A stretch of 64,000 nucleotides of DNA from Alphaproteobacteria bacterium (GTDB lineage Bacteria; Pseudomonadota; Alphaproteobacteria; Rs-D84). Shown here in pieces: positions 52,438 through 57,143 of the stretch (position 1 is the stretch's first letter; the number at the start of each line of letters is the position of its first letter). Where the stretch lies: positions 13,800-77,799 of the forward strand of contig JAFTNY010000033.1 in assembly GCA_017451625.1 (NCBI GenBank), written 5' to 3'. Below the pieces are notes generated by a model. That model ran no database searches. It worked only from the letters and a program-made list of their open reading frames with translations, and was not told where the DNA came from. Position numbers and translations under genes: made by a program.

Positions 52438-54849
52438 CTATATAATCGGTGGGAAACAGTCGCCCCCTGTGTCTGGGCAACAGTTAAATCCTTGTTCACC
52501 CATATCCGTATATGTTTCCCCTGGGCAACATCCATTTGCATCTGGTGCAACATTTCCTTCGCACATGATTGGGGCTGGTGCCTCTTCGGTGGGGGCGTCT
52601 GGCTGATTAAATGGATTTTCAATCGCGCCTGTTTCTTCGTCGTATGTCAGTCCCAAGACCTGTTCATTATATGCTTGTTGTCCTTGATTGCTGATATATG
52701 CAACACTGTTTTTGTTGTCTGTGGATTGCTGATTTTCATATACCGCCTGTTGCTTGGCGTTGTTAATCGCCTCGTACTGGCTGGACTGGCAATAGAACAA
52801 CAGTGTACGATAATCATACGTATTGCATCGACTATCGTTTTCATAGCCATTTTTCACTTTGCCGTTTTCGCAACATTCGCCAACCGCAAATGAACGCACC
52901 TGACCAATCCAATCTGGACCTGATTGATCGATGTTAACAGAACCGCGCAATTTATCGCTGTTGTATTGTTCGCGCTTTGATGCCAAACTTCTGGAATAGT
53001 ATTCTTTTACATAGCATTTACCCTGATCTGGTCCGCATACCACAATCAAGTCTTCAGGTGAATAGACCGTAATGCGCGTACCTGCAGCAATTGTAAATGG
53101 TGGAACTGTATTGTCCATCATATCAACCATCAGTTTTTGTGCGACCTGATTCCATGCGGTTATAATTTCATTCTTCGCCAGTTCTGATGAACGCACTGTC
53201 CCGCTTTGAACGACTGTGTTATTATCTAAATCGATCTGATTTACAAACGCATCAGACACAGGCGCAATCAAATTCACCGCCGCCGGCACAATTGCTGTCA
53301 ACATTGGCATAATAAACTGTTCCATATAATCTGTACTGCCGCGCCCTGGGACACCTACACGCCCCTGTGCATCACCTGCAAATGGATTGTTATCGGTGTC
53401 AAAGTTAAATTCAACACCATCTGGACGAATAAATTGATACCAATTAATCTGCATACGACCAATCGCTTTGTATGGCCCTGGTAAATCACCTGTCACATAA
53501 CCCAACATCAACGTCCCCGCTGGGATAATAATATTGCGGCCATCATCTGAATAAACGTTTCTGTCCACTGTCGCACGCACTGGTAATGGATGCCCATCTT
53601 TATAGACGCTGGCATCGGCGCGAACTTCGGATACAATTGTTGCCGGAATTGGTTTGTACTGACGCAGGACAAAACTGCGATCATATGGTTGTGTTGAAAT
53701 AACTGCGTATTCATCGCCCGATGTACCATATATAACATCTTCTTGTGGTGCAGATTTTAGCCCACCCAACGATTCTATGCCGTCCGCGCTTAATCGTCCT
53801 GCGCCACCACTGTTTGGCAGTTTAGATAACTCTAACTGTTCGGCACGATTAACTTGTTTTATCGCCGGTGCGTTCGACAGTTTTGGTATTGCACCACCGC
53901 TAATTGCCGCCCATCCGATATGTTCTGCATCTGTGCCAATTCTTTTGCCGCTGTCGTCGGTTATGATTCCATTGTCTGGGTTATATACACCGGCTGCCTT
54001 GCGACATTCCTTGTCTGCAAATGGGTGATAGTAATACGCGCCCCCGCTGGGTTTTATCCACCCAATTTGACGGCCGTTTGTGCCATATGCCGGAAATGCA
54101 AAATCTGAACAGCCATCTGGAATAACGATGCCTTTTTCTGCCACAGGTTCTGCCGCTGGCTGTTTTATAGTAATCGCTGGTGCAATCGCTTCGACTTCGC
54201 GTTTAATTTCTTCCTTGATAACGATTGGTTCTGGCTCTGCTTCTATTTCCTGTTCAGATGCGAAATCGTCCGCCGGTATCGCATCCAGCACAGGTGTTGG
54301 TACAACAACTGGTTCCGGTTCTGGCTTTTGTTCTGGTTTTGGTTGTGCCACAGGTGCAGTCGCCCCCAACGTCAAAACAATCTTGGCTGTTTTGGTCATG
54401 GCATCTGTTGCGTCTGCCCCATACCAATCAATAAACACTGGCAGATTTTTTGTCGCCATCGGTGCCGTTGGTGCGTATTCTAAAAAGATTTCACACGCCA
54501 CCGTTGGACCAATTTTGCGTATTTTTTTACACGTGTCGCGCAGTATCAGCCCCTTGATTTCTTCGTGTGTACGAACATCTGCAATCATTGCATCCGCCGT
54601 CGCAGATACTTTGACTGTTTCGGTTTTCTTTTGGCCGACAATAACATCAGACCAATTCACCATATCAGGTGCAATTTTTAGTTCCGCAGGTACAGTGTCT
54701 TCAATTTCTGATGCGCTATTATCGTCGCCACTTAACAATAATGTCAACAGTATCAACACCACAACAAACGCCGCCGCCAACAGCAACCACTGTACACGTT
54801 TTGGTGTATTTTGCCGCAGTTCTGAAATCTGTTCTTTAAGTTTACTCAT
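52438..54849 (-). CDS. virB10: Type IV secretion system protein VirB10/TrbI-like, expanded (pre-domain insert and ~200-aa Cys-rich C-terminal extension)
   Basis: N-terminal TM; Pro/Glu-rich linker 'PKPEQKPEPEP'. TrbI core 'IIIPAGTLMLGYVTGDLPG...GRMQINWYQFIRPDGVEFN...GDAQGRVGVPG'. The C-terminal tail carries 'CCPGETY' and 'NCCPDTGGDC'. ATG 54849 is preferred over the TTG at 54894. Confidence 0.85.
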   Translation of the reverse strand: MSKLKEQISELRQNTPKRVQWLLLAAAFVVVLILLTLLLSGDDNSASEIEDTVPAELKIAPDMVNWSDVIVGQKKTETVKVSATADAMIADVRTHEEIKGLILRDTCKKIRKIGPTVACEIFLEYAPTAPMATKNLPVFIDWYGADATDAMTKTAKIVLTLGATAPVAQPKPEQKPEPEPVVVPTPVLDAIPADDFASEQEIEAEPEPIVIKEEIKREVEAIAPAITIKQPAAEPVAEKGIVIPDGCSDFAFPAYGTNGRQIGWIKPSGGAYYYHPFADKECRKAAGVYNPDNGIITDDSGKRIGTDAEHIGWAAISGGAIPKLSNAPAIKQVNRAEQLELSKLPNSGGAGRLSADGIESLGGLKSAPQEDVIYGTSGDEYAVISTQPYDRSFVLRQYKPIPATIVSEVRADASVYKDGHPLPVRATVDRNVYSDDGRNIIIPAGTLMLGYVTGDLPGPYKAIGRMQINWYQFIRPDGVEFNFDTDNNPFAGDAQGRVGVPGRGSTDYMEQFIMPMLTAIVPAAVNLIAPVSDAFVNQIDLDNNTVVQSGTVRSSELAKNEIITAWNQVAQKLMVDMMDNTVPPFTIAAGTRITVYSPEDLIVVCGPDQGKCYVKEYYSRSLASKREQYNSDKLRGSVNIDQSGPDWIGQVRSFAVGECCENGKVKNGYENDSRCNTYDYRTLLFYCQSSQYEAINNAKQQAVYENQQSTDNKNSVAYISNQGQQAYNEQVLGLTYDEETGAIENPFNQPDAPTEEAPAPIMCEGNVAPDANGCCPGETYTDMGEQGFNCCPDTGGDCFPPII

Positions 54850-54869
54850 CCCCTGAACCCACGTTTTTT

Positions 54870-56402: not shown

Positions 56403-56432
56403 ACCAATTCCTTCCCGTTTCTATATATTCTT

Positions 56433-57143
56433 TTATAATTGTTCTGTCGACAAAAATCCAGTATTTAATGGGTCGCCGTCGCCATCGACAATCAAATATT
56501 CTGCCACACGCAGTCCTAACGGATTATCGATACGATCTGCCCACTTTATTTGCGAATTGTCCTCTTCTTGTAATTTCAATTTGATTGTATAATCTTTTTG
56601 GCGCGTCCGTCCAGTATTATCTGCACAGAAATAGCGAATTTTTACCTGATATGCGTCTTCTGCCGCCAGATACATTATTCCGTCAAATACCACCGGACAT
56701 GTAAATTCAAAGTCTGGCATTTCACTCATCATTGCGGTAAACATTGTTGTGTTCATAAAATCCGCATAGACCGCATCTGTTGACATAATGCGAACTGTAC
56801 CGTCTTCGCCGTTCCACTTTTTATGCATTGCCTTGGCGTTGGTAAAGACTTCGTTTCTGTGGCGGATGTATTCGCGAACAAATGCGCGTTTATATCGGTC
56901 CAGATTTTCGCCCTGTGGCTGCATCTGGGTCAGTTTGATATCTTGGTCATCACGCACAGTTGTTGTTAAAAAGAATATTTGTGGTCGGTTCAATGGGAAC
57001 ATCTTGCCCAGTGTCAACGCCAAAACCCCCAGCACGACCAGCGCGCCAGCCAACACCAACGTCATAATTCTGGATATTAAAATTGGCGGTTTTACGCGGT
57101 TTTGCACGAATTTCTCCCCCTTGATTAAAACGATTGTAGACAA
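56433..57143 (-). CDS. virB8: Type IV secretion system protein VirB8-like
   Basis: Bitopic: short cytoplasmic N-terminus, one TM, NTF2-like periplasmic domain ending in the VirB8 signature 'NPLGLRVAEY'. The likely start is GTG at 57107 (SD 'aagggggag'); the TTG at 57143 is from the ORF track. Confidence 0.7.
   Translation of the reverse strand: MSTIVLIKGEKFVQNRVKPPILISRIMTLVLAGALVVLGVLALTLGKMFPLNRPQIFFLTTTVRDDQDIKLTQMQPQGENLDRYKRAFVREYIRHRNEVFTNAKAMHKKWNGEDGTVRIMSTDAVYADFMNTTMFTAMMSEMPDFEFTCPVVFDGIMYLAAEDAYQVKIRYFCADNTGRTRQKDYTIKLKLQEEDNSQIKWADRIDNPLGLRVAEYLIVDGDGDPLNTGFLSTEQL

What the first reader, a model, noticed from the sequence alone, without database searches (positions are those of the whole stretch)
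52438..57143. Stand-alone virB8-virB9-virB10 type IV secretion operon with lineage-unusual domain extensions
Three consecutive minus-strand genes carry family signatures I can read directly: VirB8 'NPLGLRVAEY'; the VirB9 N- and C-domains; and the VirB10/TrbI 'IPAGT...GDLPG' and 'RMQINWYQFIRPDGVEF' blocks. The operon ends in tandem terminators, and no virB11/virD4 or virB1-B7 genes accompany it. This split, partial layout is the hallmark of Rickettsiales-type (rvh) T4SSs. Here VirB10 is about twice the usual length, with a pre-domain insert and a 200-aa Cys-rich tail, and VirB9 carries a SPOR-like peptidoglycan-binding tail. I do not recall either fusion in described VirB systems.
Basis: partly seen in the sequence, partly recalled or inferred. 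Interest (0 to 1): 0.8.

Follow-up and report, generated by a model that had tools for sequence, protein, structure and literature searches.

The report
Scattered type IV secretion system core
Three genes for the envelope-spanning core of a type IV secretion machine, each carrying unusual extra domains, sit at a fixed chromosomal site in a tiny-genome gut bacterium (Candidatus Enterousia); five VirB6-like channel genes lie 13 kb away, so this is one islet of a scattered, vertically inherited secretion system, not a stand-alone trio.

Summary
The observation largely holds. Three co-directional minus-strand genes encode VirB8, VirB9 and VirB10 homologues, each above Pfam's gathering score, and two tandem terminators follow them. 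VirB10 is 803 aa and VirB9 ends in a SPOR domain. These are not frameshift fusions: full-length relatives occur in at least 249 species of Candidatus Enterousia (GTDB order Rs-D84, genomes under 1 Mb). In all 68 loci that could be checked, the operon sits beside secE-nusG-rplKAJL-rpoB.

The VirB9-SPOR tail is not unique. The closest annotated relatives, complete T4SS clusters on Erythrobacter, Sphingosinicella and Microvirga plasmids, carry a homologous tail. The full Cys-rich VirB10 tail was found only in VirB10-length proteins. Its last ~45 residues recur at the C-terminus of other proteins, one of them traced to an Enterousia-like contig.

No VirB4, VirB11 or VirD4 was found in about 1.7 Mb of sampled Enterousia DNA. 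Whole genomes could not be searched.

Verdict: a new variant of a known kind, apparently undescribed.

The parts
56433..57107 (-). virB8 homologue, 224 aa from GTG 57107 (the mechanical ORF runs to TTG 57143). Bitopic: one N-terminal TM helix, then a periplasmic domain.
   Evidence: Pfam VirB8, E 1.2e-7, 32.2 bits against a gathering score of 23.2. An HMM built from six plasmid VirB8 proteins hits 84 Enterousia loci, best E about 1e-20 to 1e-23. A profile of 12 orthologues has its top PDB hits on Bartonella VirB8 and TrwG, E about 0.01. An SD-like GGGGGAG lies upstream of the GTG. Relatives are 225-226 aa.
54870..56402 (-). virB9 homologue, 510 aa: Sec signal peptide, CagX/VirB9 domains (aa 53-294), a ~120-aa low-complexity linker, and a C-terminal SPOR domain.
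   Evidence: Pfam CagX, E 2.5e-21. 39% identity over 272 aa to the VirB9 of the Erythrobacter aureus plasmid T4SS, E 2e-56.
54873..55160 (-). SPOR (peptidoglycan-binding) domain at the C-terminus of VirB9, about aa 415-510.
   Evidence: The isolated tail scores 23.2 bits on Pfam SPOR against a gathering score of 21, and 24 of 27 aligned tails hit SPOR, best E 1.1e-7. The tail is nearly invariant in 86 Enterousia VirB9 proteins. A homologous tail is present in three plasmid VirB9 proteins.
52438..54849 (-). virB10 homologue, 803 aa: cytoplasmic N-terminus (1-20), TM helix (21-40), periplasmic extensions, TrbI barrel, Cys-rich tail.
   Evidence: Pfam TrbI, E 7.9e-19. 100% identical to an NCBI record named 'TrbI/VirB10 family protein', 803 aa. 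Alignment of 23 relatives.
54355..54687 (-). ASH/PapD-like (MSP-fold) Ig-like beta-sandwich domain of VirB10, aa 55-165.
   Evidence: AF2 gives pLDDT about 80, all-beta. Foldseek PDB hits are the CEP192 and HYDIN PapD-like domains and MSP, E 1e-5 to 1e-3, target-normalised TM-score 0.57-0.68. PF15780 (ASH) is precomputed for three homologues.
53860..54117 (-). Conserved small beta-rich periplasmic domain of VirB10 with two invariant Cys, aa 245-330. Fold not identified.
   Evidence: Invariant block CSDFAF..Y..G.Q.GW.KP..G.Y...F.D..C...G.YNP.NG.ITD...IGTD..HI. AF2 pLDDT 70-80 with beta strands.
53035..53682 (-). TrbI/VirB10 barrel domain, aa 390-605, including two long helices (aa 507-539 and 555-578) in the position of the outer-membrane antenna.
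   Evidence: Pfam TrbI. The helices appear in the AF2 model. This stretch is almost invariant in 23 relatives. It is about 29% identical to plasmid VirB10 proteins.
52441..53034 (-). Cys-rich C-terminal tail of VirB10, aa 606-803, with 10 invariant Cys. The last ~45 aa (52441-52581) form a 6-Cys module, PDxNGCCxGExYTDMGxxGFNCCPxxGGxCFPP.
   Evidence: Alignment. A tail profile searched against 1.84 billion representatives finds the complete tail (profile positions 1-205 or nearly so) only in 806-850-aa proteins or in shorter ones that look like fragments; the 45-aa module also ends unrelated 200-270-aa and 680-850-aa proteins. No Pfam hit.
52378..52434 (-). Two tandem intrinsic-terminator-like hairpins with T-runs after the virB10 stop.
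51845..52189 (-). orf114: a conserved 114-aa soluble protein of unknown function, the fourth gene of the conserved block, downstream of the terminators.
   Evidence: On the same strand and within 0-400 nt of the virB10 end in 77 of 80 relatives' loci. No Pfam, PDB or named homologue.
32772..34091 (-). VirB6-like paralogue 1, 439 aa, polytopic. Transcribed divergently from the other four.
34130..39386 (+). VirB6-like paralogues 2-5: 34130-35404, 35406-36599, 36599-38086 and 38130-39386 (424, 397, 495 and 418 aa).
   Evidence: 16-23% identical to paralogue 1, with a shared TM pattern and a C-terminal KK. The array is conserved in relatives. hhalign of the paralogue profile against three VirB6 proteins: probability 71.5%, E 3.6e-5, 195 colinear columns.
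32194..32703 (-). orf169: a soluble 169-aa protein that always follows VirB6-like paralogue 1. Unknown function; possibly associated.
   Evidence: Conserved position in L007-L010. No Pfam hit.
57332..57405 (+). tRNA-Trp, the boundary of the divergent tRNA-Trp-secE-nusG-rplKAJL-rpoB cluster that fixes the operon's chromosomal position.
   Evidence: A divergent nusG lies within 1.5 kb of virB8 in 68 of 68 loci with enough upstream sequence.

Best explanation
The three genes encode the periplasm-spanning scaffold (VirB8, VirB9, VirB10) of a chromosomal, vertically inherited VirB-type (P-type) type IV secretion system of Candidatus Enterousia. These are gut alphaproteobacteria with genomes under 1 Mb that are predicted to depend on a partner. 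Together with the five VirB6-like genes 13 kb away, the operon is one of at least two islets of a scattered T4SS.

Shown: family membership of the three proteins; the domain make-up; conservation and fixed position across the lineage; the VirB6 fold of the paralogue array.

Inferred from established T4SS architecture (pKM101, R388 and Xanthomonas core complexes): VirB10 is anchored in the inner membrane by its N-terminal helix and crosses the periplasm. Here that span carries an added ASH/PapD-like Ig domain, a P/E-rich linker and a small disulfide-bonded beta domain. With the VirB9 C-terminal domain, VirB10 forms the ring under the outer membrane, and its two antenna helices line the outer-membrane pore. 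VirB9's long linker and SPOR domain reach down to bind glycan strands of the sacculus and tether the core complex. This may replace the VirB7 lipoprotein and VirB1, neither of which was detected. VirB8 nucleates the inner-membrane and periplasmic assembly. The VirB6 paralogues form the inner-membrane channel and stalk base. The disulfide-rich VirB10 tail sits at the outer-membrane-proximal face. It ends in a 45-aa module shared with other envelope proteins, at least one of them from an Enterousia-like genome, probably a common docking or anchoring element.

The ATPases (at least VirB4) are inferred to be encoded elsewhere in the genome. The likely role is contact-dependent exchange with a host or partner cell, either effector delivery or macromolecule acquisition, which fits an organism reported to lack biosynthetic pathways and standard transporters.
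Against: No VirB4, VirB11, VirD4, VirB2, VirB3 or VirB5 was detected, by Pfam in the 64-kb window, by precomputed Pfam in the 10 kb upstream of the window in a closely related contig (L097), or by phmmer and plasmid-derived HMMs in about 1.7 Mb of Enterousia loci. Those loci mostly cover the same neighbourhood. The curated NCBIfam equivalog cut-offs are far from met: VirB9 54.6 vs 217.7, VirB10 59 vs 220. The VirB6-like proteins have no Pfam TrbL/VirB6 hit and no significant HMM-to-sequence match to VirB6; their assignment rests on a medium-confidence AF2 model. The full-length VirB10 model is poor (pLDDT 50, pTM 0.24), so the barrel and tail geometry are inferred. There are no expression or functional data.
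Confidence: 0.6

Rival explanations
1. A ComB-like DNA-uptake (competence) T4SS. The machine imports DNA instead of exporting substrates, supplying nucleotides to an organism that cannot make them. Like the Helicobacter comB6-B10 operon, this operon ends at B10 and needs no VirB11 or VirD4.
For: The operon terminates right after virB10, with no virB11 or virD4. NCBIfam T4SS_ComB10 is the second-best model, E 2.2e-12. The only significant PDB sequence hits of VirB10 are Helicobacter CagY and ComB10. Rs-D84 genomes lack nucleotide biosynthesis (PMC12306168).
Against: The ComB10 equivalog cut-off is not met (46.8 vs 300), and the generic VirB10 model scores higher. The closest relatives of VirB9 are in conjugative-type plasmid clusters that do carry VirB11 and VirD4. 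No comB2-B4 equivalents were seen. Absence of virB11/virD4 at this locus says nothing about the rest of the genome.
Confidence: 0.15
2. An ATPase-less, T4SS-derived envelope structure. The lineage kept only VirB6, B8, B9 and B10 and re-purposed them as a passive conduit, an envelope tether or a cell-cell junction, decorated with peptidoglycan-binding and disulfide-rich modules. No VirB4 exists.
For: No ATPase or pilin gene in about 74 kb of essentially contiguous sequence (the window plus 10 kb upstream from a closely related contig), or within 10 kb of the operon in 80 species. The extensions are heavy and lineage-specific: SPOR, Ig-like domain, and a Cys-rich tail whose terminal module is shared with non-T4SS envelope proteins. 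Sequence divergence from all solved T4SS subunits is extreme.
Against: VirB4 is the one subunit found in all described T4SSs (established knowledge). Scattered islets with ATPases elsewhere are the norm in Rickettsiales (PMC2653234). Only about 2-8% of any one genome was inspected. The antenna helices and the N-terminal cytoplasmic segment plus TM helix of VirB10, which couple to ATPases in known systems, are strongly conserved.
Confidence: 0.12
3. A remnant of an integrated conjugative element or plasmid: a mobile T4SS module in decay.
For: The nearest annotated homologues are on plasmids that carry MobA/MobL relaxases.
Against: The chromosomal position is identical in 68 of 68 loci. GC content matches the surroundings. 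No relaxase, integrase, T4CP or repeat boundaries lie nearby. All three proteins are intact and under strong conservation in hundreds of clusters.
Confidence: 0.03
4. The long VirB9 and VirB10 are assembly or frameshift artefacts that fuse neighbouring genes.
For: None beyond the unusual lengths.
Against: The best 120 independent homologues are 776-813 aa, and all but one cover 97-98% of the query. The best 80 species representatives match over residues 1-803 or nearly so. 86 VirB9 proteins share the tail.
Confidence: 0.01

Closest known systems
rvh (Rickettsiales vir homolog) T4SS, Gillespie et al. 2009 (PMC2653234)
   Same: A chromosomal, vertically inherited VirB-type system split into islets in a reduced-genome, host-dependent alphaproteobacterium. 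It also has a tandem array of five divergent VirB6 paralogues, and a virB8-virB9-virB10 gene order.
   Different: In rvh the islet continues virB10-virB11-virD4, and the VirB6 array follows virB3-virB4a. Here virB10 is followed by terminators, and the VirB6-like array has no virB3 or virB4. rvh VirB6 proteins are 668-1154 aa and detectable by sequence; these are 397-495 aa and detectable only by fold. R. typhi VirB9a, VirB9b and VirB10 are 247, 158 and 481 aa, far shorter than the 510 and 803 aa here. No duplicated virB8 or virB9 was seen here. Phylogenetic affinity to rvh was not tested, because no rvh sequences were available to the tools.
T4SS clusters on alphaproteobacterial megaplasmids: Erythrobacter aureus YH-07 (NZ_CP031358), Sphingosinicella sp. 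BN140058 p1 (NZ_CP035502), Microvirga sp. VF16 pMVF16-3 (NZ_CP069357)
   Same: The closest annotated sequence relatives: VirB9 is 39% identical over the CagX region. They have the same long VirB9 (430-550 aa) with a homologous SPOR-like C-terminal tail, a long VirB10 (529-590 aa) with a two-Cys region after the TM helix, and the order virB8-virB9-virB10.
   Different: These are complete single-locus clusters with a relaxase, virB2, B3, B4, B11 and D4, presumably conjugative. Their VirB10 lacks the Cys-rich C-terminal tail. The TrbI domain is only about 29% identical. They have no fivefold VirB6 array.
Helicobacter pylori ComB and Cag systems (ComB10, CagY)
   Same: The only solved structures that VirB10 hits by sequence (E about 1e-3). 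The comB6-B10 operon also ends at B10. CagY is another VirB10 homologue with a large extension.
   Different: The CagY extension is N-terminal to the VirB10 domain (from general knowledge, not tested here); here the Cys-rich part is C-terminal. The ComB10 equivalog cut-off is not met.
R388 Trw T4SS (TrwI/VirB6 in the stalk complex, PDB 7o3v and 8rt9)
   Different: 12-13% sequence identity. The Enterousia proteins are about 170 aa longer. R388 has a single copy.

Membership tests
VirB8 (PF04335) | Profile match above the curated threshold | tested here: met
   32.2 bits against a gathering score of 23.2, covering positions 7-209 of the 213-position model. A plasmid-VirB8 HMM gives E about 1e-20 in 84 loci.
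VirB8 (PF04335) | Bitopic topology (short cytoplasmic N-terminus, one TM helix, periplasmic domain) and similarity to solved VirB8 periplasmic domains | tested here: inconclusive
   One hydrophobic segment near the N-terminus is read directly from the sequence. A profile search of the PDB puts Bartonella VirB8 and TrwG on top, but only at E 0.009-0.12.
VirB9/CagX (PF03524; TIGR02781) | Pfam domain above threshold, plus a signal peptide | tested here: met
   76.9 bits against 34.2. An N-terminal hydrophobic leader ending AYA-A is read from the sequence.
VirB9/CagX (PF03524; TIGR02781) | NCBIfam equivalog cut-off for P-type conjugative VirB9 | tested here: not met
   54.6 bits against a cut-off of 217.7. 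It is a family member, but not an equivalog of the canonical conjugative VirB9.
VirB10/TrbI (PF03743; NF038091) | Pfam TrbI domain above threshold | tested here: met
   68.7 bits against 35.
VirB10/TrbI (PF03743; NF038091) | N-terminal TM anchor, proline-rich periplasmic linker, and a C-terminal barrel with a two-helix antenna | tested here: met
   A TM helix at aa 21-40 and a P/E-rich linker at aa 165-240 are read from the alignment. Two long helices, 507-539 and 555-578, lie inside the TrbI region of the AF2 model, but at low pLDDT.
VirB10/TrbI (PF03743; NF038091) | NCBIfam T4SS_VirB10 equivalog-domain cut-off | tested here: not met
   59 bits against a cut-off of 220.
SPOR domain (PF05036) | Profile match above the gathering score | tested here: met
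   In the whole protein it scores 20.0 against 21. The isolated tail scores 23.2 against 21, and 24 of 27 tails match, best E 1.1e-7. Only the second half of the model (positions 38-76) aligns in the window copy.
SPOR domain (PF05036) | Binding to denuded peptidoglycan glycan strands | not testable with these tools
   This needs biochemistry.
VirB6/TrbL (PF04610) | Sequence-profile match | tested here: not met
   No Pfam hit even at E<=10. HMMs built from plasmid VirB6 proteins, and the reverse search, are not significant. hhalign gives a probability of only 71.5%.
VirB6/TrbL (PF04610) | Polytopic inner-membrane protein with the VirB6 fold | tested here: met
rvh T4SS (Rickettsiales vir homolog) | Islet virB8-virB9-virB10-virB11-virD4 | tested here: not met
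   Terminators and orf114 follow virB10. There is no VirB11 or VirD4 within 10 kb in the 80 species loci or the other fetched loci. Definition from PMC2653234.
rvh T4SS (Rickettsiales vir homolog) | Tandem proliferation of VirB6 (five paralogues) | tested here: met
   Five tandem paralogues at 32772-39386, conserved in relatives.
rvh T4SS (Rickettsiales vir homolog) | virB3-virB4 adjacent to the VirB6 array; duplicated virB4, virB8 and virB9 | tested here: not met
   None is adjacent in the window or in L007-L010. There is one VirB8 and one VirB9 per locus. Duplicates elsewhere in the genome cannot be excluded.
rvh T4SS (Rickettsiales vir homolog) | Phylogenetic affinity of the subunits to Rickettsiales and lvh proteins | not testable with these tools
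   No rvh sequences could be obtained.
Functional T4SS of any class | A VirB4-family ATPase encoded in the genome | not testable with these tools
   Not found in the window, in L097, or in about 1.7 Mb of loci.
ComB competence T4SS | ComB10 equivalog cut-off | tested here: not met
   46.8 bits against a cut-off of 300.
Conjugative plasmid or ICE T4SS (MPF_T) | Linked relaxase and coupling protein; variable, mobile location | tested here: not met
   No relaxase or T4CP nearby. Fixed position next to nusG in 68 of 68 loci.

The most novel reading that the evidence does not exclude
Candidatus Enterousia (order Rs-D84) carries a previously undescribed, highly derived T4SS. Either it evolved the rvh-style architecture (scattered islets, fivefold VirB6) independently of Rickettsiales, or it has shed the canonical ATPases altogether. 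In the second case a VirB6/8/9/10 conduit, tethered to peptidoglycan and decorated with disulfide-rich modules, would serve an extracellular, sub-1-Mb gut parasite as its nutrient or DNA acquisition junction with partner cells.
Probability: 0.2. Interest if true: 0.85.

Novelty: new variant of a known kind. Interest (0 to 1): 0.6.

Why it matters
Enterousia and Rs-D84 bacteria are widespread in ruminant, horse, chicken and human guts. Their genomes are under 1 Mb, with no biosynthesis, respiration or standard transporters, and how they live is unknown. The only metabolic study found here proposes uptake from a partner through unknown membrane proteins (PMC12306168).

A conserved T4SS-type apparatus of about 10 kb that has survived extreme genome reduction is a concrete candidate for that interface. 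It gives specific targets for cryo-ET, metatranscriptomics and co-culture work.

For T4SS biology, it adds a second reduced-genome alphaproteobacterial lineage with a fivefold VirB6 array. It also points to a T4SS subfamily, shared with some plasmids, in which VirB9 carries its own peptidoglycan anchor, and to a new 45-residue six-Cys C-terminal module shared by VirB10 and other envelope proteins.

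Tried and rejected
1. Sequence searches for VirB2, B3, B4, B5, B6, B7, B11 and D4, using phmmer and HMMs built from six plasmid clusters. Nothing was found at E<10 in the window plus about 90 Enterousia loci.
2. Extending the window by 10 kb upstream (L097). No T4SS Pfam family.
3. Pfam at E<=10 and a PDB sequence-profile search on the five membrane paralogues. Only noise, such as channelrhodopsin at E 0.06. Their identity came from fold comparison alone.
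4. I took the 420-450-aa proteins at the 'VirB6 position' of the Erythrobacter, Sphingosinicella and Microvirga clusters to be VirB6. They have at most one hydrophobic segment and are hydrophilic over the rest of their length, so I dropped them as comparators.
5. The afdb50 fold library was unavailable.
6. BLAST of the VirB10 N-domain, middle domain and tail against all ORFs of the loci, looking for paralogous domains in the neighbouring Cys-rich proteins. None was found; weak hits to the YidC periplasmic domain were not significant.
7. The full-length AF2 model of VirB10 was too poor (pTM 0.24) to interpret the barrel or tail.
8. Identification of orf114 by Pfam, NCBIfam, PDB profile and homologue names. 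Nothing.
9. Literature searches for RF32 or Rs-D84 with secretion system, for VirB9 with SPOR, and for Enterousia with T4SS. No relevant paper.
10. A lookup of the exact VirB10 protein to name the source assembly. Not on record.
11. The mobile-element and frameshift explanations were rejected on synteny and conservation.

Full report
**What is at the coordinates.** ORF listing shows three co-directional minus-strand ORFs: 56433-57143, 54870-56402 and 52438-54894.

- Pfam places them in VirB8 (E 1.2e-7; 32.2 bits, gathering score 23.2), CagX/VirB9 (E 2.5e-21; 76.9 vs 34.2) and TrbI/VirB10 (E 7.9e-19; 68.7 vs 35).
- NCBIfam finds the VirB9, VirB10 and ComB10 models too, but far below their equivalog cut-offs: 54.6 vs 217.7, 59 vs 220 and 46.8 vs 300. 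These are true but very divergent family members.
- The real virB10 start is ATG 54849, giving 803 aa. That product is identical to a public protein annotated 'TrbI/VirB10 family protein'.
- virB8 most likely starts at GTG 57107, behind a GGGGGAG Shine-Dalgarno sequence. This matches the 225-226 aa of its relatives.
- Gaps between the genes are 20-30 nt.
- Two hairpin-plus-T-run terminators follow the virB10 stop, at 52434-52418 and 52395-52378.

**Organism and inheritance.** The rest of the window is ordinary chromosome: acrB, dacC, recR, ksgA, yidC, a class I aminoacyl-tRNA synthetase, uvrD, lpxD, nusA, infB, PBP1, mraY, ftsW, murG and pagL. On the other side of the operon lie tRNA-Trp, nusG, rplK, rplA, rplJ and rplL. 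None of the large ORFs is a T4SS ATPase.

- A scan of one genome per GTDB species found 249 relatives of VirB10. The best 80 align over residues 1-803 or nearly so, at 51-68% identity.
- Their records are named Candidatus Enterousia, 'uncultured Rickettsiales' or simply Alphaproteobacteria. They come from ruminant, horse, chicken, mouse and human gut. One of them, OZ007020.1, is a chromosome-level record of 958,618 bp whose isolate name marks it as circular.
- The literature places Enterousia in GTDB order Rs-D84. Genomes are 0.75-1.0 Mb and lack amino-acid, nucleotide and lipid biosynthesis, respiration and standard transporters. The predicted lifestyle is obligate symbiont or parasite. That paper does not mention a T4SS (PMC12306168).
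- In all 68 loci with enough upstream sequence, a divergent nusG lies within 1.5 kb of virB8. Gene tables of six loci show rpoB-rplLJAK-nusG-secE | virB8-virB9-virB10-114-aa ORF, with variable genes beyond.
- The 114-aa ORF (51845-52189) follows virB10 in 77 of 80 loci.

This is a fixed, vertically inherited chromosomal block, not a mobile element. The lengths are not assembly artefacts.

**The extensions of VirB10.** An alignment of 23 relatives and a full-length AF2 model give the layout below. The model is poor overall (pLDDT 50, pTM 0.24) but good locally.

- **aa 1-20:** cytoplasmic segment.
- **aa 21-40:** TM helix.
- **aa 55-165:** an all-beta domain with pLDDT about 80. Its Foldseek matches are ASH/PapD-like/MSP domains: CEP192, HYDIN and major sperm protein (E 1e-5 to 1e-3; target-normalised TM-score 0.57-0.68). 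Three homologues carry precomputed PF15780 hits, which agrees.
- **aa 165-240:** a Pro/Glu-rich linker.
- **aa 245-330:** a strongly conserved beta-rich domain with two invariant Cys. Its fold was not identified.
- **aa 390-605:** the TrbI domain. Two long helices (507-539 and 555-578) sit where the outer-membrane antenna lies in canonical VirB10. The sequence here is almost invariant.
- **aa 606-803:** a tail with 10 invariant cysteines.

A profile of the tail was searched against 1.84 billion representative proteins and found 253 clusters. The complete tail occurs only in 806-850-aa (VirB10-length) proteins, or in shorter ones that look like fragments.

The last ~45 residues (C..PDxNGCCxGExYTDMGxxGFNCCPxxGGxCFPP) also end two other kinds of protein:

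- secreted proteins of 200-270 aa, with one to three tandem copies;
- bitopic proteins of 680-850 aa, with a cytoplasmic coiled-coil N-domain.

None of these has a Pfam hit. One of them lies on a contig whose rpsA is 92% identical at protein level to that of an Enterousia locus. The tip of the tail is therefore a small disulfide-rich module shared by several envelope proteins. At least one of the other carriers comes from an Enterousia-like genome. It is most simply read as a common docking or anchoring element, not a T4SS-specific part. That reading is inference.

**The SPOR tail of VirB9.**

- In the whole protein the SPOR hit is just below threshold, 20.0 vs 21. The isolated tail scores 23.2, and 24 of 27 aligned tails match SPOR, best E 1.1e-7.
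- The last 85 residues are nearly identical in 86 Enterousia VirB9 proteins.
- A low-complexity linker of about 120 residues separates the tail from the CagX domains. That is long enough, in principle, for the domain to reach the sacculus from a complex seated under the outer membrane (inference).

**The fusions are not all unprecedented.**

- tblastn of VirB9 against 72,556 plasmids hits only 13 records.
- The best hits (39% identity) are Erythrobacter aureus and Sphingosinicella plasmids, followed by Microvirga, Azospirillum and a Candidatus Paracaedimonas plasmid.
- Their annotated regions are T4SS clusters. Most carry a MobA/MobL relaxase, virB2, B3, B4, B8, B9, B10 and B11, and most also carry D4.
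- The first three have VirB9 proteins of 430-550 aa, and their C-termini align with the Enterousia SPOR tail (RLRVGPF...C...SC).
- The first three also have VirB10 proteins of 529-590 aa. The Erythrobacter one, the only one compared directly, shows a weakly similar two-Cys region after the TM helix.

So the peptidoglycan-anchored VirB9 is a trait of a small T4SS subfamily from which the Enterousia genes plausibly derive. The long VirB10 with an N-terminal domain probably is too. I found no paper that remarks on it. The Cys-rich C-terminal tail of VirB10 was not seen in those plasmid systems.

**Not stand-alone.** Between 32772 and 39386 lie five tandem genes, one divergent and four co-directional. 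They encode paralogous polytopic membrane proteins of 397-495 aa, 16-23% identical to one another and all ending in KK. They have no Pfam hit.

- The array is conserved in relatives from different genomic contexts, together with a 169-aa ORF and rpmE.
- A template-free AF2 model of paralogue 1 (pLDDT 61.7, pTM 0.53) has TrwI/VirB6 chains of the R388 T4SS as its best Foldseek hits in the PDB.
- Profile-profile comparison with three plasmid VirB6 proteins gives a colinear 195-column alignment at 71.5% probability.
- HMM-to-sequence searches are not significant.

I conclude, with moderate-to-good confidence, that these are VirB6-type proteins. [quoted passage not shown]

**Comparison with rvh.** By that paper's definition, rvh comprises islet A (virB3-virB4a-virB6a-e), islet C (virB9a-virB8a-virB7-virB8b-virB9b-virB10-virB11-virD4) and further islets. 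It has duplicated virB4, B8 and B9 and lacks virB5.

- Shared here: chromosomal islets, vertical inheritance and the fivefold VirB6.
- Not shared: no virB11 or virD4 after virB10, no virB3 or virB4 before the VirB6 array, and no duplicated virB8 or virB9 in the regions seen.
- The best sequence affinities available to me are to plasmid systems, not to anything rickettsial. I could not bring rvh sequences into the session, so homology versus convergence remains open.

The system works like, and looks like, an rvh-style archipelago. I do not file it as rvh.

**What is missing.** phmmer with two reference clusters, and HMMs built from six, detect VirB8, B9 and B10 in about 85 loci. They detect no VirB2, B3, B4, B5, B6, B11 or D4 at E<10 in the window plus about 90 Enterousia loci, roughly 1.7 Mb. 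The 10 kb upstream of the window, read from a closely related contig, also holds none.

These loci mostly cover the same two neighbourhoods, so this is 2-8% of any one genome. A lineage-specific VirB4 could therefore not be looked for. Whether the system is complete remains untested.

**Mechanism (best reading, confidence about 0.6).** VirB8, VirB9 and VirB10, with the VirB6 paralogues, form the envelope-spanning part of a VirB-type T4SS whose ATPases lie elsewhere.

- VirB10 links the inner and outer membranes. Its antenna forms the pore.
- The added Ig-like and beta domains thicken the periplasmic span.
- The VirB9 SPOR domain ties the core complex to peptidoglycan.
- The disulfide-rich tail, with its shared module, decorates the face nearest the outer membrane.

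Such a system has been kept in genomes under 1 Mb across at least 249 species, in organisms that must obtain most metabolites from outside. That points to a role at the interface with a host or partner cell.

Rival readings:

- a ComB-like DNA-import system (0.15);
- an ATPase-less derived conduit or tether (0.12);
- a decaying mobile element (0.03);
- an artefact (0.01).

**Novelty and score.** Automated annotation already names the proteins, and the families are known. What appears undescribed is the system itself: an rvh-like scattered T4SS in Enterousia/Rs-D84, the peptidoglycan-anchored VirB9 subfamily, the VirB10 architecture, and the six-Cys terminal module. I rate it a new variant of a known kind, interest 0.6.

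Noticed in passing
window 52441-52581 (last ~45 aa of VirB10); proteins P0258, P0265, P0272, P0278, P0276, P0277, P0299, P0305, P0282, P0298; loci L100, L101: A ~45-residue six-Cys module (PDxNGCCxGExYTDMGxxGFNCCPxxGGxCFPP) ends VirB10. It also ends, sometimes in tandem, small secreted proteins and ~700-aa bitopic proteins that have a conserved cytoplasmic N-domain and a coiled coil. One of these lies on a contig whose rpsA is 92% identical to that of an Enterousia locus. No Pfam family covers it. It may be a lineage-specific envelope sorting or docking domain.
   Followed up: partly
window 39445-41709 (+) and 48356-50548 (+): Two large paralogous secreted proteins (754 and 730 aa; 31 and 25 Cys). 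Each has an N-terminal signal peptide, an S/T/R/N/A-rich low-complexity region and a Cys-rich C-terminal part. No Pfam hits. The first lies directly after the fifth VirB6-like gene. Homologues were seen in only 5-6 of the fetched loci. They could be surface proteins, or substrates or adhesins of the system.
   Followed up: partly
window 30519-31112 (+) and 50578-51189 (-): Two small Cys-rich ORFs (197 aa with 15 Cys; 203 aa with 9 Cys). The second has a marginal Ephrin_rec_like Pfam hit (24 bits against a gathering score of 23.1). Together with the items above, this shows an unusual density of disulfide-rich exported proteins in the region.
   Followed up: no
window 51845-52189 (-): orf114 is a soluble, very conserved 114-aa protein (EKFQNAEQLWFWFLYS...LITKLYLSGKLTDEQL...GDRRRAPHQ...GWIE). 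It follows virB10 in 77 of 80 relatives' loci, downstream of the terminators. No family, structure or name was found. It could be a regulator or an accessory factor.
   Followed up: yes
window 32194-32703 (-): orf169 is a soluble 169-aa protein that always lies downstream of VirB6-like paralogue 1, followed by rpmE, in the four relatives' loci examined. Unknown function.
   Followed up: partly
L092 5294-6655, L093 8390-9658, L094 8225-9511 (plasmid T4SS clusters): The closest plasmid T4SS clusters have, between the VirB5-like gene and virB8, a 420-450-aa Ala-rich protein that is hydrophilic apart from at most one N-terminal hydrophobic segment and has no Pfam hit. The Erythrobacter and Sphingosinicella clusters show no obvious polytopic VirB6 in the annotated stretch. 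This T4SS subfamily looks atypical in its own right.
   Followed up: partly
window 3828-5039 (+): A D-Ala-D-Ala carboxypeptidase (Peptidase_S11) with its own C-terminal SPOR domain (E 1.4e-6). It is conserved in relatives, so SPOR-mediated targeting is used elsewhere in this reduced genome.
   Followed up: no
window 83-682 (+), with L097 8667-9998: A 199-aa ORF with one TM segment and no Pfam hit lies between a TolC-like OEP gene (just upstream of the window) and acrB, where a membrane-fusion (AcrA-type) protein would be expected. It may be a minimal or divergent adaptor.
   Followed up: no
window 57212-58384 (-) and 54080-54856 (+): These long mechanical ORFs are spurious. The first overlaps tRNA-Trp, secE and nusG on the opposite strand. 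The second lies antisense inside virB10.
   Followed up: yes
L063 (OZ007020.1 19236-41692): A chromosome-level record of 958,618 bp, marked circular in its isolate name, carries the same operon about 30 kb from its coordinate origin. It is the obvious genome for a full T4SS inventory.
   Followed up: no
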